24,829 nucleotides of DNA from a virus: UHGV virus genome UHGV-0244087. One strand, written 5' to 3'. Of the stretch, positions 4,775 to 23,249 are shown piece after piece (within the stretch, counting starts at the first letter, position 1; the number at the start of each line of letters is the position of its first letter). The position numbers were made by a program, and so were the translations under genes. The notes beneath the pieces were generated by a model. The model ran no database searches. It was not told where the DNA came from and saw only the letters and a program-made list of their open reading frames with translations.

Positions 4775-6655
4775 TTATGCTGCGGGATTATTGATTTCCA
4801 GCACCAGGCTGCCGATATCGACGCCGTACGCGGCATTTTTAGTGATATCAGTTAACGTCAGCGCATTCAGCCCCAGTGTCAGACTGTCTTTTATGACCTG
4901 GAATGCCGGGCCAGCCACTCCATTCAGTTTCGGAGTAACCGTGGCACTGCCGGCGGTGAACACCAGCTCCAGCGTCTGCCAGTCGTTACTGTAATTCCCG
5001 AACTCGCCCAACTTTGTGTTTCCGGCTTTCTTGTGATGCATCAGATTCAGTTTGCCGTCTGTGGTCTGGGTGAAGAACGACATCAGGAACGGGTTACCAG
5101 TCCCGGTCATCGCCACGACGTCAGGTAACGCTACATCGGTATACAGATAAATTCCCAGACCGAACTGGTTGTTGGTCAGTGCGCCTGACAGTCGAAACTT
5201 ACAGCTCAGTCTGCCACCCCGTGTCAGCAGGGAGACTGCGTCATCCACCGGATGCATCAGGGACCAGGTTTTATTGCTCTGCTTGGTAACCTTAAACACA
5301 CCATCTTCCAGCGCAACACTGCCGCCGGTGATGGTCCAGCCCTGCGCAGCAGCCTCTCCGGCTGTCGGCAGCAGGGAGACTGTACGAACGGATGTGTCAC
5401 CATCAGACGGCCCCGATGGAGTGTCGCCGCCGGGCGAGGGTTTAATCTCCGGTGCGGTACCGCTGATGAAGGCGCTGGTTCGACCAACTGCGTTCAGAAT
5501 AGCGGTTGCCAGGCGATCCGAAATAATGCTCCTGCGCGCCCATGAACTGAAATGTGTCGGACGATTTGACGATACCCAATTACCATTACTACGGGATTGC
5601 GCGCCGTAATAACCTGCATCAGCAATATCCGGGTCTTCTGCCGGTAAGTTGGTGGGCGTGTTGTTGCCGTTACCGTCGGTCATGAACGGCACAAAGAAAA
5701 CGTTGTCGCTCTCCCTGTTTTTGTACGCGCCGTAGACGGAGTCATACTGTGTGCCGTATGTGTTTTTCCAGTAATACGTCGTGTCGCCACAAATCCACGG
5801 TACAACTGCAGCACTGCCGCCATGGCACTGCGCGTTAAATCCGGAAAGGTCAGTACGGAACTGCTTCAGCATGGCCGTGAACAGGTCCGGTTGCTGTGCG
5901 TAGGTGGCAGCGCTCATGTCAAATTCGCCCTGCATCCAGCACACCGCCAGCAACACATTTTTCGGGTTCTTCTGTAATGCAGCTTTAGTGCGCGCAATCA
6001 GGTCCTGATATAACGGTTTACCCACACCCCAGCGCGCCGAATCCTGGCTGGCCCCCGTGGTCGTACTGAATGTTCCCTCCGCGCCCTGAGTGAATGCCGA
6101 ACCACCACGGCAGCATGGTACCAGCAGGATCCCCGCGTTATTCGGGATATACGGGAGCAGTTTTTTGGCAATATGTAAGCCCTGGCCGACACAGCCGTAC
6201 TGCCCTTTGCTCAGGTCTGCCTTCGGATGATTCAGTGCGCTCATATCCTGAACATCATGCAGGCAGTGGTCTGCCGGAATGATGTCGTTAAATGCGCATG
6301 CTTTACCACCGGGAGTCACTGTGTTGCGACGGGCCAGTTGCTTAATGCGTGGGTGGGGCGCATCGTAAGAATCCGGCAGCGGCATTCCATCACCATATGA
6401 CATGGCATTGGATTGACCAGCAAGTACCACCACGTAATACCACTCCGGCACGCTGCCGTGCTGGGGGGAATCAGGTGAGATGTCTGTAGTGCCATCGGCC
6501 ACCATTGCCTGCATTAGATACCACGGGGTGCCGGGTTCGTAGGCAACCCGCGTCTCCCCCTGAAGATGCCACCCTTTCGCAAGATGTTCATTCACCTTTT
6601 GAGTCAGTTCAGCCTGTGTCATGGCTGTAATCAGTGCAAAGTTCTTACTGGTCAT
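4775..6655 (-). CDS. NanS-p-like prophage esterase: N-terminal DUF1737-type domain, central sialate O-acetylesterase (SGNH/SASA) domain, C-terminal lectin-like domain
   Basis: 626 aa. N-terminus MTSKNFALITAMTQAELTQKVNEHLAKGW; esterase motif WYYVVVLAGQSNAMSYGDG. Start ATG overlaps the LysC stop, and the gene ends 23 nt before R, so it sits inside the late operon. Confidence 0.8.
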   Translation of the reverse strand: MTSKNFALITAMTQAELTQKVNEHLAKGWHLQGETRVAYEPGTPWYLMQAMVADGTTDISPDSPQHGSVPEWYYVVVLAGQSNAMSYGDGMPLPDSYDAPHPRIKQLARRNTVTPGGKACAFNDIIPADHCLHDVQDMSALNHPKADLSKGQYGCVGQGLHIAKKLLPYIPNNAGILLVPCCRGGSAFTQGAEGTFSTTTGASQDSARWGVGKPLYQDLIARTKAALQKNPKNVLLAVCWMQGEFDMSAATYAQQPDLFTAMLKQFRTDLSGFNAQCHGGSAAVVPWICGDTTYYWKNTYGTQYDSVYGAYKNRESDNVFFVPFMTDGNGNNTPTNLPAEDPDIADAGYYGAQSRSNGNWVSSNRPTHFSSWARRSIISDRLATAILNAVGRTSAFISGTAPEIKPSPGGDTPSGPSDGDTSVRTVSLLPTAGEAAAQGWTITGGSVALEDGVFKVTKQSNKTWSLMHPVDDAVSLLTRGGRLSCKFRLSGALTNNQFGLGIYLYTDVALPDVVAMTGTGNPFLMSFFTQTTDGKLNLMHHKKAGNTKLGEFGNYSNDWQTLELVFTAGSATVTPKLNGVAGPAFQVIKDSLTLGLNALTLTDITKNAAYGVDIGSLVLEINNPAA

Positions 6656-15800: not shown

Positions 15801-16292
15801 TCACTCTCCTTTGATGCGAATGCCAGTGGTACTCATTCTCCTGATTTCCCAGAGCACACGAGGAACACCACCGTTTCCGACCGGATCGCGTTTACTCCGC
15901 AGGGCGACGCTTGATTCCGCCCAGCTTTTTCTTGGAGGAAGCTCTTTCACACGAACAAAACCAGCTGCGCGGAGAGATGCTCCTGATTCATCTGCCTGGG
16001 TGTACGTAATACAACGTTGATAACCCATAGCCTTTGCTGCCCGCCAGACAGCACCATAAAGCGCGCTGTTAGCGTTGCGTTCTCCTGTGGTACATGTGCG
16101 ATTTACTTCAAGCGTTAATCCATCGTCCAAATGTCGTGCAACAGGTCTACCGGCTGTCGCCACACCTATCAATTCTCCGGCATCATTTCTCAGACCAATG
16201 CTGAATTTATGCCCCACCGGGGGTTTATTGTGTCGGTGATGTCTGGATATAAACGCCTTCGCAACACGAAGAGTAACCGGTGAAATTTGCAT
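15801..16292 (-). CDS. Hypothetical 163-aa protein, third gene of the cargo operon; possibly acyltransferase-like
   Basis: ATG at 16290-16292, 2 nt after the stop of the 104-aa gene, with the same embedded ribosome-binding site. A loose resemblance to GNAT-toxin N-terminal regions (FISRHHRHNKPP..IGVATAG) is not verified. Confidence 0.6.
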   Translation of the reverse strand: MQISPVTLRVAKAFISRHHRHNKPPVGHKFSIGLRNDAGELIGVATAGRPVARHLDDGLTLEVNRTCTTGERNANSALYGAVWRAAKAMGYQRCITYTQADESGASLRAAGFVRVKELPPRKSWAESSVALRSKRDPVGNGGVPRVLWEIRRMSTTGIRIKGE

Positions 16293-17001: not shown

Positions 17002-17313
17002 TTATTCGGGAAATAACGCCCGGATATTTCCGGCCATCTGACTGGTTATCTGTGCGGCTGATACTGGCTGTGACGCGGGGCGTTCTGTCCTGGTTTGTGT
17101 CATTGATAACGCCTCATCATCAGCCCATGCAGCCAGTCGGTAAGCCTCTGCCGGATTCATTTTCAGTAGTGCCAGCCCGGCCAGAAAAGCCACGCGTTGA
17201 CCACTTTTGCGGGCTTCTGGTGTAAGGCTGTCCAGCCAGGCGCATGCTTCGCCTTCGTTCTTGACGGCGGCGGGCTTCAGATAGAAACTTATCCGTCTGG
17301 TTGGTGTCGTCAT
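17002..17313 (-). CDS. parR: ParR (StbB)-like centromere-binding protein
   Basis: 103 aa; RRISFYLKP..LDSLTPEARKS..AFLAGLALL..NIRALFPE parallels recalled R1 ParR (RRTIAFKLNP..LDSIPQGERSR..LTAGLALY..LRSLFPKE). AAGGAG ribosome-binding site; start 5 nt after the parM stop. Confidence 0.75.
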   Translation of the reverse strand: MTTPTRRISFYLKPAAVKNEGEACAWLDSLTPEARKSGQRVAFLAGLALLKMNPAEAYRLAAWADDEALSMTQTRTERPASQPVSAAQITSQMAGNIRALFPE

Positions 17314-17317
17314 TGGT

Positions 17318-18277
17318 TTACTCCTTGCCCATTGCGTACAGCCCATTAACCAGAGCAAACTGTGGCACCCCGTCCGCGATGAAAGTCGCATTAACTCCGC
17401 AGGCTTCGCGGATAGCGGGTGCCACAATCTCTGCCCCGCCACCGACAACCATCACCCGCCCGTAACCCGAAAAACCCGCCAGCGCGCGGATCACGCGTTG
17501 TTTCAGTGTTTCTTCCTTTTCACGAATAACCGCCATCAGGCTGGCGTAATGCGCGTCATTGTGGATGTGCTGGCGCAGCCAGGCTTCATCATGGCGATGT
17601 TCGATAATGGTATTGGCGATGTGGTGACTGGTACGCATACCGTTAGTGGCCATCACCGACAGTACGGCATCGGCCATCAGGGAAACGCCTACGTGTGGAT
17701 CGCAAAACACCTGGCTGATACCTGCCAGTTGTCCCTGAACCTTTGCCACATCCAGCGTGGTTCCGCCTAAATCCACAATCAGCAGGGATTCAAACGGACT
17801 CATGTCAGCCAGTGCCTTAAAGCCAGCCGGAATGGATTCAGGCATAACCCGTACGTTACGGATAGTGAATGCTTCGCCGTTCTGGTACTCCACCGGGCGC
17901 ATAACGTTCGCTTTTTTGCGGTTGATGTTGGCTATGTCCGGCTGTGCGTTTGTGTCGAAATACTCGCTCAGTGGCAGGGTGACAACCACATCCACCTCCT
18001 GTGGCGTGATGCCTGATTTGACCAGCGCGTGATGAATGGCAATGACATTCACATCGCTGTACTGGTATTGCGTGTCAGTCGTCTGGACAAAGCGATCGCT
18101 GACCGGATCAAAACCATAGCGCACGCCATCAAGCATGTAGTTCGCGGGCTGCGTGCCACCGAACGGCGCAGACCATTCCGACTTGAAGCTGTTCGGGCTG
18201 ATGGCGTTGCGGCGTTCGCCGTTCTCAGTCCATGCCAGCTTGATGTTGGTGGAGCCGTCATCGATACAAATTTTCAT
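17318..18277 (-). CDS. parM: ParM (StbA)-like actin-family ATPase
   Basis: 319 aa; MKICIDDGSTNIKL..ISPNSFK..YSDVNVIAIHHAL..VMPESIPAG..LIVDLGGTTLD..VGGGAE tracks recalled R1 ParM along its length. Confidence 0.85.
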   Translation of the reverse strand: MKICIDDGSTNIKLAWTENGERRNAISPNSFKSEWSAPFGGTQPANYMLDGVRYGFDPVSDRFVQTTDTQYQYSDVNVIAIHHALVKSGITPQEVDVVVTLPLSEYFDTNAQPDIANINRKKANVMRPVEYQNGEAFTIRNVRVMPESIPAGFKALADMSPFESLLIVDLGGTTLDVAKVQGQLAGISQVFCDPHVGVSLMADAVLSVMATNGMRTSHHIANTIIEHRHDEAWLRQHIHNDAHYASLMAVIREKEETLKQRVIRALAGFSGYGRVMVVGGGAEIVAPAIREACGVNATFIADGVPQFALVNGLYAMGKE

Positions 18278-21182: not shown

Positions 21183-21548
21183 TTACTTCGTCATGCCATT
21201 CAGGGTGTCGCGGCAGACTGTAGCCAGCCGCTGAATTTCCAGCACGGTGTCTTCTGTGTCGGCATGGCGATGTGTGATGCGGATGCTGTCGGCAATCACA
21301 TCGACGATTGCAGAGGATGGGCGCTGGTAAATGCCAATAACGGACGGGGTGCCACCTTCAATGCGGTAAAGCCTGTAATTTCCCTCGTGGCTGTCAATCA
21401 TGTAGCGACCATCAATAACAATCTTTCCGTCAGCGAGCTGCGGTACAGGCAGGGATTTCAGGTACATGTCATAACGATCACGCACGCGAGCGGCAAGATC
21501 ACGTTCTGTGTTGAGCAGGTATTCAAGAAAGTCGTTGGCGAGAATCAT
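21183..21548 (-). CDS. Hypothetical 121-aa early-region protein immediately upstream of A
   Basis: ORF ending 7 nt before the A start; no family recognised. Confidence 0.55.
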   Translation of the reverse strand: MILANDFLEYLLNTERDLAARVRDRYDMYLKSLPVPQLADGKIVIDGRYMIDSHEGNYRLYRIEGGTPSVIGIYQRPSSAIVDVIADSIRITHRHADTEDTVLEIQRLATVCRDTLNGMTK

Positions 21549-21620
21549 TGCGGCAATCCTCTTGTTACAGATGTGCGAAGGCCTCCCGCCGCAAGGTGCA
21601 GGAAAGGCCCGGAACAGGAA

Positions 21621-21851
21621 TTAATGGAGTTTGTTTTGCTGCTGGATGAGCTGTTGAAGCTCGCGCAGATCATCCGCCAGATAGCTGAAAACAGCGGCGG
21701 AATAGATGTTTGATAGTGCGTGGCTGCGCTCATGCAGCATATTGATGTGCATGATATGCGCGACGCGGAATGCGCGGAAAAGTCTGCGGTTGATTTCAGT
21801 CTGGATGTGACGACGCGCAGCGTATGCGCGCTGTTGTTTGCGGTTTGCCAT
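21621..21851 (-). CDS. Hypothetical 76-aa basic protein
   Basis: ORF with a weak GAGG ribosome-binding site; arginine-rich N-terminus; no family recognised. Confidence 0.4.
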   Translation of the reverse strand: MANRKQQRAYAARRHIQTEINRRLFRAFRVAHIMHINMLHERSHALSNIYSAAVFSYLADDLRELQQLIQQQNKLH

Positions 21852-22030
21852 GGGGTGGCCTCGTACGTAGTAAGTTTTAAAAACTCACCATCCAGAGGTT
21901 CCAAGCTCGGGGTGGTGAGACGTACAGGGTTGGAACTACCGGCTACGCACGAATCCGGCCCGACCGAAGTCGGCCCCATACGCCCCACCATAATTCTGAC
22001 GCGAAAAAGACGTGGCGATACGGTACGCAC

Positions 22031-22051
22031 AAAAAAACCGCTGGCGCGGTT
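22031..22051 (-). terminator. Intrinsic terminator (minus strand) inside the non-coding island
   Basis: Hairpin aaccgc-gcca-gcggtt followed on the minus strand by a run of seven T. Confidence 0.6.
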
Positions 22052-22187
22052 GTGCGCGTGCATAGTCAGCGGGGTTCCAATCCCGGCACCCGTTTTATGA
22101 GGTGCAGCGGAAATGTAACCTGACTGATTGCGGCATGGCAAGCGGTTTTTTTGTGAGAACGGCATACTAAAAAATCCTGATACTGCT

Positions 22188-22212
22188 CCGGCCAGCGGTT
22201 TTCACTGGCCGG
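22188..22212 (-). terminator. Hairpin immediately after the SPFH gene stop; weak terminator
   Basis: ccggccag-cggttttca-ctggccgg, 8-bp perfect stem; the T-run on the minus strand starts only about 11 nt later. Confidence 0.45.
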
Positions 22213-22218
22213 GTTTAA

Positions 22219-23049
22219 TTACTTCACCGGAACAAACGGAACAGCGGTGTTACTGGTCATGTATTGCGGTAGCGTGCCGTTCCATTTGTTAATCGCTTCC
22301 AGCTCCATAACGCCGGGATTCTGGCGCAGAGCTTCGCCGCGTAAACGAATGGCGTCGGCTTCAGCCTGGGCTTTTGTGCGAATGGCATCGGCTTGTCCGG
22401 CAGCTTCTGCGCGCAGCATGTTGGCTTCAGCTTCGCGTTGCTTGACTTCCTGTTCACGTTGCAGGGTTTTCTGGTTTGCCGTGACTTTGGCGTTAATGCT
22501 GTCGATAACGGTTGGCGGATATTCCGGTTTACCGACATAAGAGAGGCTCATGACCTGAATACCGATGGGGGTCATCTCTTCCTGAATATCTTTAAGTGCT
22601 GAATCCAGCAGTTCAGACTTACCACCGTCGATAAACTTATCGGTGGTCATTTTGCTGGCCAGTCGGTTGAGTGCATCGGCGATCTTCTGGCGCAGGTCAG
22701 TGTCGGTAATGTCGTCCACGCCTTTGCGGTAGGTCTGAAACACCGTGGTAACTTTGGATGGATCAACTTTGTAGGCCACGCCGATGTGATAGCCGATGGT
22801 TGTGCCGTCACTCATCTGAAAGCTGAACGGCTCATCGTAGGTCTTCATTTGTTTGAAGGTCGGGAAGATGTAAACCTCGGTATTCCAGCCAGTCCAGTAG
22901 CGACCAACGCCAACCACTTCGCCAACGCCTTTGTCGTCGCCCAGCTTGTTGACTTTGATGCCCATATTACCTGGCTCAACGCGATCGCAGCCAACCAGCA
23001 GGATGGCGGCAAAAAGCGGGAGAATCTGAAAGAGTCTGAATTTCTTCAT
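22219..23049 (-). CDS. SPFH/band-7 (prohibitin/HflC-like) lipoprotein
   Basis: 276 aa; N-terminus MKKFRLFQILPLFAAILLVGC (signal peptide plus lipobox); band-7 core followed by an Ala/Glu/Arg-rich coiled coil (EAEANMLRAEAAGQADAIRTKAQAEADAIR). Confidence 0.75.
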   Translation of the reverse strand: MKKFRLFQILPLFAAILLVGCDRVEPGNMGIKVNKLGDDKGVGEVVGVGRYWTGWNTEVYIFPTFKQMKTYDEPFSFQMSDGTTIGYHIGVAYKVDPSKVTTVFQTYRKGVDDITDTDLRQKIADALNRLASKMTTDKFIDGGKSELLDSALKDIQEEMTPIGIQVMSLSYVGKPEYPPTVIDSINAKVTANQKTLQREQEVKQREAEANMLRAEAAGQADAIRTKAQAEADAIRLRGEALRQNPGVMELEAINKWNGTLPQYMTSNTAVPFVPVK

Positions 23050-23249
23050 TGTTTAATTTCCTTGATGTACTTACTGAAAAGGCGAACAACGCCTGCCGGG
23101 TACAGCATGGCAATGAAAATGCCCAACAATACCAGGAAGGAGCTGTCTGATGAAATCATTCGGGGGAGTACCCCTACATACAGAATGAGAGAGACGAGGA
23201 CGCATACCAGCGCCCATGCATATGCACGAAACCATGTCTTGTTGTTCAT
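23046..23249 (-). CDS. Small membrane protein (67 aa, two predicted transmembrane helices) translationally coupled to the SPFH gene
   Basis: Internal ATG at 23247-23249 (MNNKTWFRAYAWALVCVLVSLILYV...); its stop overlaps the SPFH start (ATGA). Ribosome-binding site is weak. Confidence 0.55.
   Translation of the reverse strand: MNNKTWFRAYAWALVCVLVSLILYVGVLPRMISSDSSFLVLLGIFIAMLYPAGVVRLFSKYIKEIKQ

What the first reader, a model, noticed from the sequence alone, without database searches (positions are those of the whole stretch)
22219..23249. SPFH/band-7 lipoprotein with a coupled two-helix membrane peptide inserted in the early region
A lipobox-bearing SPFH protein with a C-terminal coiled coil is translationally coupled (ATGA overlap) to a 67-aa two-helix membrane protein upstream. 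The arrangement resembles host SPFH plus small-partner pairs such as YqiJ/YqiK and YbbJ/QmcA, but here it is carried as a moron between early ORFs and followed by its own hairpin. Membrane-scaffold pairs in prophages are candidates for superinfection exclusion or abortive-infection modules.
Basis: partly seen in the sequence, partly recalled or inferred. Interest (0 to 1): 0.6.

Follow-up and report, generated by a model that had tools for sequence, protein, structure and literature searches.

The report
Phage SPFH lipoprotein with two-helix partner
A P2-like E. coli prophage carries an optional two-gene cassette, a small two-helix membrane protein plus a periplasm-facing SPFH (stomatin/HflK-like) lipoprotein; the same pair is found in hundreds of phages, including the lytic model phage N4, and I found no reported function for it.

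Summary
Window 22219-23049(-) encodes a 276-aa SPFH/Band_7 protein with a lipobox and a 65-residue C-terminal helix. Window 23046-23249(-) encodes a 67-aa two-helix membrane protein whose stop overlaps the SPFH start (ATGA). Comparison with an empty-site relative shows that the pair is a discrete ~1.1-kb cargo in the early operon of a P88-like (P2-like) prophage, present in about 10% of such prophages in E. coli.

The interpretation needs correcting in four ways:
- The partner is not NfeD-like. It belongs to its own family with a conserved P-x-L-I-S loop.
- That partner is found beside, or fused to, this SPFH family across distant phages.
- The pair is not prophage-specific. It occurs in 385 phage records, including the lytic phages N4 (gp19/gp20), LUZ24-like, rV5-like, crAss-like and phiCbK.
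- I found no promoter for the cassette, and the hairpin is not a canonical terminator. It looks like an early lytic-cycle gene pair, not a lysogen-expressed moron.

Best reading: a lipid-anchored SPFH cage on the periplasmic face of the inner membrane, like HflK/C, with a detachable transmembrane anchor. Its role is unproven. Superinfection exclusion or envelope protection is the leading guess. The papers found note such phage genes only in passing and report no phage function.

The parts
23046..23249 (-). Small partner gene: 67-aa protein with two transmembrane helices. Predicted N-in/C-in, with a short periplasmic loop P29-R-M-I-S33-S-D-S-S.
   Evidence: ORF and sequence. phrog_1130 at 1.6e-20. 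Hydrophobic segments and the K/R distribution. P29 is invariant and S33 nearly invariant in 22 partner or fused sequences.
22219..23049 (-). SPFH/Band_7 lipoprotein gene, 276 aa: signal peptide with lipobox, SPFH domain, 65-residue helix, and a conserved C-terminal W-x-G-x-x-P tail.
   Evidence: Pfam Band_7 at 1.3e-30. phrog_200 at 3.6e-111. AF2 pLDDT 91. Foldseek best hits are HflK/C, erlin, prohibitin and stomatin cages. The C-terminal motif is present in 242 of 260 homologues.
22987..23049 (-). Signal peptide and lipobox (MKKFRLFQILPLFAAILLVG-C21), followed by Asp at +2.
   Evidence: Sequence. Cys is invariant. C-D-R is found in 96/96 close homologues. That Asp+2 means inner-membrane retention comes from established knowledge of the E. 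coli Lol-avoidance rule; it was not tested here.
23046..23049 (-). ATGA stop/start overlap between the two genes.
   Evidence: Sequence. The same -4 overlap occurs in all 57 close viral loci whose partner is at least 83% identical, and a -20 overlap in the 22 others. It is also -4 in Stx2 phage, BcepF1, L087 and L091, and -8 in N4.
22188..22212 (-). 10-bp GC-rich hairpin starting 7 nt after the SPFH stop codon. It lies inside the inserted cassette.
   Evidence: RNA fold of the 76-nt stretch: -22.8 kcal/mol, z=-2.95. Not scored as an intrinsic terminator on the - strand.
22156..23246 (-). Extent of the inserted cassette relative to an empty-site relative (boundaries good to a few bases).
   Evidence: BLAST and alignment against Escherichia phage PhiR44_2. 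The flanks are shared at 90-92% identity and the cassette is absent.

Best explanation
The cassette is a phage accessory module, not a host-type SPFH-NfeD operon.

Shown:
- Gene 1 encodes a 67-aa hairpin of two transmembrane helices.
- Gene 2 encodes an SPFH protein with a lipoprotein signal peptide.
- The two genes overlap.
- The pairing recurs across very distant phages, and in roughly one in seven distant clusters the two are a single ORF.
- The cassette is optional cargo inside the early operon.

Inferred architecture: the SPFH protein is exported, lipidated on Cys21 and, because of Asp at +2, kept in the outer leaflet of the inner membrane. Like HflK/C, prohibitin and stomatin, it uses its long helix to assemble into a ring or dome. 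Here the dome would sit on the periplasmic face. The two-helix partner, with both tails in the cytoplasm and its conserved P-x-L-I-S loop in the periplasm, would act as the detachable transmembrane anchor or fence of that dome, at about 1:1.

Inferred timing: the pair is made with early or middle lytic genes, after induction or infection, rather than in the quiescent lysogen.

Inferred role (weakest step): by fencing off patches of inner membrane, the assembly protects the infected cell's envelope. The most likely form of this is blocking DNA entry by a second phage (superinfection exclusion during the lytic cycle), analogous in logic to T4 Imm/Sp but unrelated in sequence.
For: Domain and fold:
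- Band_7 at 1.3e-30.
- AF2 model with pLDDT 91: SPFH domain, then a helix over 179-243.
- Best structural matches are the cage-forming HflK/C (7vhq), erlin, prohibitin, stomatin and QmcA-YbbJ.

Periplasmic orientation:
- The lipobox Cys is invariant.
- C-D-R is found in 96/96 close homologues.
- Fused forms have two helices, then a third helix, then SPFH. That places the SPFH domain outside if the N-terminus is inside.

Link between the two genes:
- A partner is present in 79 of 79 close viral loci that have enough upstream sequence.
- All 5 distant relatives looked up (33-53% identity) have a small hydrophobic ORF abutting the SPFH start.
- The same arrangement is seen in Stx2 phage, Cyrano, N4 gp19/gp20, BcepF1 and PhiSH19.
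- About 17 of 116 full-length cluster representatives are fused, and they carry the same loop motif.
- Two fusions were each seen on two or three independent contigs.

Lytic-cycle use:
- 385 phage records carry a homologue, including the lytic phages N4, LUZ24-like TL, rV5-like SSE121, phiEa104, crAss-like and phiCbK.
- The position is early or middle in N4, TL and BcepF1.
- There is a 10-nt gap and no promoter-like site upstream in the window.

Exclusion idea:
- An N4 superinfection-exclusion system is stated to be uncharacterised (PMC12642591).
- N4 gp18, next door, is annotated 'similar to P22 gp17'.
- The PhiSH19 pair sits next to a gene annotated as a superinfection exclusion protein.
Against: - No experiment bears on function, and no paper found assigns one. 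A 2026 paper says the reason an SPFH gene sits in a phage genome 'remains unclear'.
- There is no sequence similarity to any known exclusion or defence family: no PADLOC hit for the SPFH protein and no Pfam hit for the partner.
- Oligomerisation, lipidation and inner-membrane sorting are inferred, not shown.
- The neighbour-gene clues are annotations of unknown quality.
- Some family members lack an obvious two-helix partner: phiEa104 and SSE121 have soluble upstream ORFs, and TL gp11 has one helix.
- N4 rapid-lysis mutants did not map to gp19/gp20, so there is no link to lysis inhibition.
- A prophage SPFH protein in Pasteurella is expressed in the lysogen. This shows that at least some phage SPFH genes are not purely lytic-cycle genes.
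Confidence: 0.4

Rival explanations
1. HflK/C mimic. The phage SPFH cage acts on the host membrane protease FtsH, or another inner-membrane protease, by enclosing it or by competing with HflK/C. This would change the turnover of phage or host proteins such as lambda-type CII/CIII/Xis, LpxC or membrane proteins.
For: HflK is the only solved protein found by sequence (E=1.2e-4). HflC and HflK are the top NCBIfam hits, and HflK/C chains are the top fold matches. The predicted orientation is periplasmic, as for HflK/C. The pair sits next to int-xis in Stx2 lambdoid phages. Others have speculated the same for a Burkholderia phage SPFH protein (PMC10269572).
Against: Identity to HflK/C is only 16-18%. 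NCBIfam scores are far below the cut-offs (25.7 against 134.4, and 23.5 against 159.4). All cage-forming SPFH proteins score about equally by fold, so the match is to the superfamily. The module occurs in lytic phages with no lysogeny decision. Nothing here shows contact with FtsH.
Confidence: 0.2
2. One reading: a lysogen-expressed moron that protects the host by superinfection exclusion or abortive infection, as a prophage defence module.
For: It is optional cargo at a variable site. About 10% of P88-like prophages in complete E. coli genomes carry it (145 of ~1446 genomes), and a related Citrobacter phage carries a different gene at the same site. Membrane proteins are common among prophage exclusion genes (established knowledge). 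A Pasteurella prophage SPFH protein is expressed in the lysogen.
Against: No promoter-like site was found, and there are only 10 nt to the upstream gene. The genes lie inside the early operon, which in P2-type phages is repressed in lysogens (established knowledge of P2; not tested for this phage). The hairpin is not a canonical terminator. There is no PADLOC model hit for the SPFH protein. The same pair at 61% identity is found in strictly lytic N4 and in many other lytic phages, where abortive infection makes no sense.
Confidence: 0.12
3. The small protein is the active agent: a holin-like or channel-forming peptide, similar in size and topology to class II holins. The SPFH cage would regulate it, setting lysis timing or membrane potential during infection.
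For: It is 67 aa with two helices, N-in/C-in, and a charged C-tail. That resembles pinholin S21 in size and topology (from memory, not tested). Eukaryotic stomatins are known to regulate channels (established knowledge). The partner and signal peptide diverge much faster than the SPFH body: 45-100% and 35-100% identity against 97-100%.
Against: Only isolated, insignificant holin hits were found (E 0.04-0.17 in one member each). The module is never in the lysis cassette in the phages examined, and this prophage has its own holin, endolysin and LysB/LysC set. Covalent fusion to SPFH fits a structural anchor better than a regulated toxin. N4 rapid-lysis mutations map elsewhere.
Confidence: 0.1
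4. Lysogenic-conversion surface or vesicle lipoprotein that acts on the animal host (a TLR2 agonist or virulence factor), as reported for the prophage SPFH protein PM0222 of Pasteurella multocida.
For: PM0222 is a prophage-borne 'HflK/C-like' SPFH protein of 25-35 kDa. It is found in outer-membrane vesicles, activates TLR1/2, and its deletion attenuates virulence (PMC9872710). The window's relatives occur in Stx-converting phages and in clinical E. coli isolates.
Against: Asp+2 predicts inner-membrane retention, not surface exposure (plus the established rule). The family is widespread in lytic and environmental phages, including Caulobacter, Myxococcus, crAss-like and soil phages. Any triacylated lipoprotein stimulates TLR2, so that activity need not be the selected function.
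Confidence: 0.05

Closest known systems
Escherichia phage P88 gp11/gp12 and phage N4 gp19/gp20 (PHROG families 1130 and 200)
   Same: These are direct homologues with the same two-gene layout. P88 is 93% identical in DNA over the whole region and 99% in protein. N4 gp20 is 61% identical, with a 68-aa gp19 that carries the same L-P-S-M-V-S loop and overlaps gp20 by 8 nt.
   Different: Nothing of substance differs. None of these has a published function that I could find. They are annotated only as 'lipoprotein', 'membrane protein', 'serine protease' or 'gp'.
Bacterial SPFH-NfeD operons (E. coli QmcA-YbbJ, YqiK-YqiJ; B. subtilis FloA/FloT with NfeD)
   Same: An SPFH scaffold is encoded next to a small membrane protein. 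The SPFH fold and long helix match the QmcA-YbbJ cryo-EM structure 8z5g (E=9e-9). A cage enclosing the partner's helices is a plausible shared principle.
   Different: The partner has no NfeD/OB-fold domain. The anchor is a lipid on Cys21 rather than an N-terminal helix or hairpin. The predicted orientation is periplasmic, whereas QmcA faces the cytoplasm (established knowledge). The pair is phage-borne.
HflK/HflC-FtsH complex
   Same: These are the nearest solved relatives by sequence and fold. The SPFH dome is periplasmic and sits on the inner membrane.
   Different: Identity is 16-18%, and scores are far below the HflK/HflC equivalog cut-offs. This is a single gene rather than an HflK+HflC pair. 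It is lipid-anchored. No link to FtsH has been shown.
T4 Imm and Sp (superinfection exclusion by small early membrane or periplasmic proteins)
   Same: The logic is the same: early-expressed small inner-membrane and periplasmic proteins of a lytic phage acting at the envelope. This is an analogy from established knowledge.
   Different: No sequence or fold relationship was detected (no Pfam hit). Function is untested here.
Pasteurella multocida prophage protein PM0222
   Same: A prophage-encoded SPFH 'HflK/C-like' protein of similar size.
   Different: It is reported in outer-membrane vesicles and as a virulence factor. Its homology to this family and the presence of a partner gene were not tested.

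Membership tests
SPFH / Band_7 superfamily (Pfam PF01145) | Profile match above the curated cut-off | tested here: met
   E=1.3e-30, 107.2 bits against a cut-off of 23.6, covering profile positions 2-176 of 176.
SPFH / Band_7 superfamily (Pfam PF01145) | SPFH alpha/beta fold followed by a long helix, as in cage-forming members | tested here: met
   AF2 pLDDT 91.2 with a helix over 179-243. Foldseek probability 1.00 to HflK/C, erlin, prohibitin, stomatin and flotillin.
SPFH / Band_7 superfamily (Pfam PF01145) | Assembly into a large homo-oligomeric ring or cage | not testable with these tools
   Only monomer prediction was available. This needs native PAGE or cryo-EM.
Phage families phrog_200 (lipoprotein) and phrog_1130 (membrane protein) | Profile match to both families in adjacent genes | tested here: met
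   3.6e-111 and 1.6e-20.
Bacterial lipoprotein | N-terminal signal peptide ending in the lipobox [LVI][ASTVI][GAS]C | tested here: met
   The sequence is ...A-I-L-L-V-G-C21. The Cys is invariant in 53 homologues, and lipobox types LVGC, LTGC and LAGC are seen in 96 close homologues.
Bacterial lipoprotein | Actual lipidation and Lsp cleavage; inner- versus outer-membrane sorting | not testable with these tools
   Asp at +2 in 96/96 close homologues predicts inner-membrane retention by the E. coli +2 rule (established knowledge).
SPFH-NfeD operon | Partner carries an NfeD (PF01957) OB-fold domain | tested here: not met
   No NfeD hit at E<=0.1 for the window protein, nor at E<=1 for 22 partner or fused N-termini. 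A partner profile does not find YbbJ in the PDB at E<=10. 67 aa with two helices leaves no room for an OB fold.
HflK / HflC | Match to the NCBIfam equivalog models above cut-off | tested here: not met
   HflC 25.7 bits against 134.4; HflK 23.5 bits against 159.4.
HflK / HflC | Two paralogous subunits encoded together; association with FtsH | tested here: not met
   There is a single SPFH gene in the cassette. FtsH association cannot be tested here.
Moron (autonomously expressed prophage cargo) | Present or absent between otherwise collinear relatives | tested here: met
   Empty site in PhiR44_2, 569R5 and 705R2. 145 E. coli genomes carry the full context, out of ~1446 with the P88-like early region.
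Moron (autonomously expressed prophage cargo) | Own promoter and own terminator | tested here: not met
   No sigma-70-like site on the - strand upstream of 23249, and a 10-nt intergenic gap. The hairpin lacks an adjacent U-tract and is not called as a terminator. The consensus scan is crude, so a weak or non-sigma-70 promoter is not excluded.
Known anti-phage defence or exclusion systems | Match to a PADLOC model or to a known exclusion family | tested here: not met
   No PADLOC hit for the SPFH protein. The small protein has only a 20-residue match to PDC-M18B at E=0.008. There is no Pfam exclusion family hit.

The most novel reading that the evidence does not exclude
The pair is a widespread, so far unrecognised phage device. 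A lipid-anchored SPFH cage is built on the periplasmic face of the inner membrane early in infection, with a fast-evolving, exchangeable two-helix anchor. It would physically fence the membrane against entry of a second phage genome, and would be the missing superinfection-exclusion system of N4 and many other lytic and temperate phages. A further twist: in the fused forms the lipobox Cys is still invariant. These may therefore be polyprotein precursors that signal peptidase II cuts internally into an anchor peptide and a lipoprotein.
Probability: 0.22. Interest if true: 0.75.

Novelty: new variant of a known kind. Interest (0 to 1): 0.48.

Why it matters
SPFH scaffolds such as HflK/C, prohibitin, stomatin and flotillin are now known to form membrane cages, but what they are for is still debated. 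Here is a version that phages carry again and again: 385 phage records, spanning temperate P2-like, lambdoid Stx and phage-plasmid genomes, and lytic N4-like, LUZ24-like, rV5-like, crAss-like and jumbo phages. It always has the same small partner logic, and it occurs in genetically tractable systems (N4, P88, Stx phages). A phenotype there would give a clean, non-essential model for what an SPFH cage does. It could also identify a general phage strategy at the inner membrane, including the uncharacterised exclusion system of N4. If there is no phenotype, it remains a well-annotated accessory gene of unknown function.

Tried and rejected
- PADLOC scan of the pair and its neighbours gave nothing meaningful.
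- The NfeD/YbbJ relationship of the partner was rejected.
- Scanning genome contigs with protein alignments failed twice, because no stretch was conserved enough. I used exact-protein look-ups of distant representatives instead. That is a small sample: 7 proteins.
- Literature searches on SPFH with prophage, phage defence, superinfection exclusion, anti-phage and phage-encoded found only passing genome-annotation remarks. A search for N4 gp19/gp20 found nothing relevant.
- The N4 rapid-lysis mutant table does not include gp19/gp20, so a link to lysis inhibition was dropped.
- A fold search against viral models returned only other unannotated Band_7 proteins.
- A spanin (Rz/Rz1-like) reading was considered and rejected. 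The phage has its own LysB/LysC next to the holin and endolysin, and the pair is in the early region.
- The longer 111-aa alternative start of the small ORF (23381) was rejected. It overlaps the upstream gene, relatives use the 67-aa form, and the empty-site junction falls at the 23249 ATG.
- The 206-aa ORF at 21545-22165 is most likely a spurious 'ash' translation of the isrK/C4 RNA region.
Full report
**What is there.** On the minus strand, window 23249-23046 encodes a 67-aa protein and window 23049-22219 a 276-aa protein. The stop of the first overlaps the start of the second as ATGA. Each start has an AAGG(G/A) Shine-Dalgarno-like motif 8-9 nt upstream.

The large protein matches Pfam Band_7/SPFH over the whole profile (E=1.3e-30, 107 bits against a cut-off of 23.6). 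It also matches the phage family phrog_200 'lipoprotein' (3.6e-111). Its N-terminus is a signal peptide ending in the lipobox L-V-G-C21. That Cys is invariant in an alignment of 53 relatives at 31-60% identity. The next two residues are D-R in all 96 close homologues where the motif could be located.

An AlphaFold2 model (pLDDT 91.2) shows the SPFH alpha/beta domain, one continuous helix over residues 179-243, a short helix, and a flexible tail. The tail carries a W-x-G-x-x-P motif found in 242 of 260 homologues. The small protein has two hydrophobic segments and K/R-rich ends. It matches phrog_1130 'membrane protein' (1.6e-20).

**Genomic setting.** The window is a P2-like prophage of the P88 type (genus Xuanwuvirus) in E. 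coli. The region is 99.9% identical to two E. coli chromosomes and 93% identical to phage P88. Annotation of the whole window shows the P2-type head, lysis and tail genes, and the replication endonuclease gpA.

The pair lies in the early operon, co-directional with the genes around it. The order is cox-like gene, small ORFs, MarR-type wHTH, Ead/Ea22-like ORF, the pair, isrK and C4 RNAs, derepression protein, gpA.

Alignment with the relative PhiR44_2 shows that window ~22156-23246 is simply absent there. The flanks, at 90-92% identity, join directly. The cassette begins at the small ORF's ATG and ends about 30 nt after a hairpin, just upstream of the promoter-like site for isrK.

Among 5426 complete E. 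coli genomes, about 1446 carry the P88-like early region and 145 carry the full cassette in this context, roughly 10%. A Citrobacter relative carries a different gene at the same spot. So 'inserted cargo' is right.

'Moron with its own hairpin' is less well supported:
- Only 10 nt separate the upstream stop from the ATG.
- No sigma-70-like promoter is found upstream on this strand.
- The 10-bp hairpin at 22188-22212 is stable: the 76-nt stretch containing it folds at -22.8 kcal/mol, z=-2.95. But its U-run starts 13 nt downstream, and the scan does not score it as a terminator.

**The pairing is conserved and sometimes fused.**
- The same SPFH gene, at 92% DNA identity, sits next to int-xis in Stx2-converting phages and phiP27, where it is annotated 'serine protease'. 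An unannotated 62-aa two-helix ORF overlaps its start by ATGA.
- Phage-plasmid Cyrano has the pair at 76% DNA identity.
- Among 80 close viral contigs, 79 have the partner. The one exception is cut off by the end of the contig.
- An exhaustive profile-free search finds 221 clusters (at 50% identity) with E<1e-30. Of 116 full-length representatives, 75 have a lipobox N-terminus. About 17 carry an N-terminal extension of two helices with the same loop motif as the small ORF, followed by a third helix, the Cys, and the SPFH domain.
- Two such fusions were each found on two or three independent contigs. An AF2 model of a fused form gives three helices, then the SPFH domain.
- All five unfused distant representatives that were looked up (33-53% identity) have a 35-72-aa hydrophobic ORF abutting or overlapping the SPFH start, in phage-like neighbourhoods.
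- An alignment of 22 partners and fused N-termini has an invariant Pro and a nearly invariant Ser in a G-x3-P-x-L-I-S-A-x-S loop between the helices.
- The pairing is not universal. phiEa104 and SSE121 have soluble upstream ORFs, and TL gp11 has one helix.

**The partner is not NfeD.** No partner or fused N-terminus hits Pfam NfeD at E<=1. A partner profile does not find YbbJ, or anything meaningful, in the PDB. The resemblance to YqiJ/YqiK and YbbJ/QmcA is therefore one of principle (an SPFH protein plus a small membrane protein), not of family.

**Not prophage-specific.** tblastn finds the SPFH protein in 385 phage records. These include the following strictly lytic phages:
- N4 (gp20 is 61% identical; gp19 is 68 aa with the motif L-P-S-M-V-S and an 8-nt overlap; the pair lies in the middle-gene region after RNAP II)
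- the LUZ24-like phage TL
- rV5-like SSE121
- phiEa104
- BcepF1, where the two genes are the first in the genome and are annotated 'membrane protein' and 'HflC/HflK family inner membrane lipoprotein'
- crAss-like and Lak phages
- phiCbK and Mx1

A more distant SPFH lipoprotein in the Vi01-like phage PhiSH19 also has an unannotated 72-aa two-helix ORF overlapping its start. This distribution argues for a job done during the infection cycle. It argues against abortive infection as the general function.

**Mechanism.** By sequence, the only solved relatives are HflK and prohibitin-2. By fold, the best matches are the cage-forming HflK/C, erlin, prohibitin, stomatin, QmcA-YbbJ and flotillin.

The lipobox, together with Asp+2 (the E. 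coli inner-membrane retention signal, from established knowledge), predicts a protein on the periplasmic face of the inner membrane, the same side as HflK/C. The topology of the fused forms agrees: N-in, two helices, then a third helix leading out.

I therefore read the pair as a lipid-anchored periplasmic SPFH ring or dome whose two-helix partner is a detachable transmembrane anchor or fence at about 1:1. This architectural reading is reasonably well supported, although the assembly itself is unproven.

**Uneven divergence within the module.** Among close relatives the mature SPFH domain is 97-100% identical. The partner ranges from 45 to 100% and the signal peptide from 35 to 100%. The 92%-identical stretch shared with Stx phages stops inside the signal peptide. 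The N-terminal module is thus exchanged or diverges much faster than the scaffold.

**What the assembly is for is not known.** I rank the possibilities as follows:
1. Envelope protection or superinfection exclusion during the lytic cycle. It fits the early/middle position, the inner-membrane/periplasm location and the spread across lytic and temperate phages. A 2025 preprint also states that N4's exclusion system is still unidentified (PMC12642591).
2. Modulation of FtsH or another membrane protease, as an HflK/C mimic.
3. The lysogen-expressed defence reading.
4. A holin-like role for the partner.
5. A role in virulence, as reported for the Pasteurella prophage SPFH protein PM0222.

None of these can be decided with sequence tools.

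**What is known.** The genes are annotated in databases under various names: P88 gp11/gp12, N4 gp19/gp20, PHROGs 1130 and 200, 'SPFH domain-containing protein', 'serine protease'. Genome papers mention them in passing. I found no experimental study of phage function. A 2026 paper says explicitly that the reason for an SPFH gene in a phage 'remains unclear'. I also did not find the conserved non-NfeD partner, its fusion to SPFH, or the fast-evolving N-terminal module described anywhere.

**Verdict.** The feature is real and correctly observed. It is a member of a large, already annotated but functionally uncharacterised phage gene-pair family. I rate it a new variant of the SPFH-plus-small-partner theme. 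Interest is moderate. It is not surprising in kind, but it is widespread, structurally interpretable and directly testable in N4 and P88.

Noticed in passing
window 21908-22105 (-) and 21621-21851 (-): Directly downstream of the cassette lie an isrK Hfq-binding RNA (22031-22105, 67 bits) and a C4 antisense RNA (21908-21995, 80 bits). A 76-aa 'derepression protein' follows (Pfam Derepression, 1.3e-7). Together they look like a P1 immI-like or antirepressor control module inside a P2-like early operon. The 206-aa 'ash family' ORF at 21545-22165 overlaps both RNAs and is probably a spurious translation.
   Followed up: partly
window 4775-6655 (-): A 626-aa protein with DUF1737, a SASA sialate-O-acetylesterase domain and DUF6645 sits right after lysC in the late region. 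It is a NanS-p-like esterase of the kind known from Stx prophages, here as cargo of a P2-like prophage. It has no PADLOC hit.
   Followed up: partly
window 17002-18277 (-): A ParM-type actin-like segregation protein and a small partition protein lie immediately after the replication gene gpA. This suggests that this integrated P2-like phage family also carries plasmid-style partition genes.
   Followed up: no
window 15801-16292 (-): An XF1762-family protein has a weak, below-cut-off match to the Mom DNA-modification family (E=1.5e-4, 22 bits against 27.1).
   Followed up: no
L100 1773-2324 (Citrobacter phage Shae_phiSM): The insertion site that holds the SPFH cassette in the window holds a 183-aa 'DNA binding protein' in this relative. 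The site between the Ead/Ea22-like gene and isrK is therefore a variable-cargo spot in Xuanwuvirus phages.
   Followed up: no
L098 1432-1650 (-) (Salmonella phage PhiSH19): An unannotated 72-aa two-helix ORF overlaps the start of the SPFH lipoprotein of this Vi01-like phage. Its upstream neighbour is annotated 'superinfection exclusion protein'.
   Followed up: partly
L003 3467-3655 (-) (Stx2a phage Stx2_EH2201): A 62-aa two-helix partner ORF with an ATGA overlap is present but unannotated in Stx2-converting phage records, and the adjacent SPFH gene is mislabelled 'serine protease'.
   Followed up: yes
alignment A5 (fused homologues), column of P0001 Cys92: All 20 fused two-helix-plus-SPFH proteins keep the lipobox-position Cys after the third helix. 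That is unexpected for a plain uncleaved transmembrane anchor. It hints at internal processing by signal peptidase II, or at a second internal start.
   Followed up: no
P0001 versus L066-type loci: The 347-aa protein P0001 (96% identical) looks like a frameshift fusion within the 20-nt overlap of the partner and SPFH genes of the L066 group. It could be a real variant or a sequencing error.
   Followed up: partly
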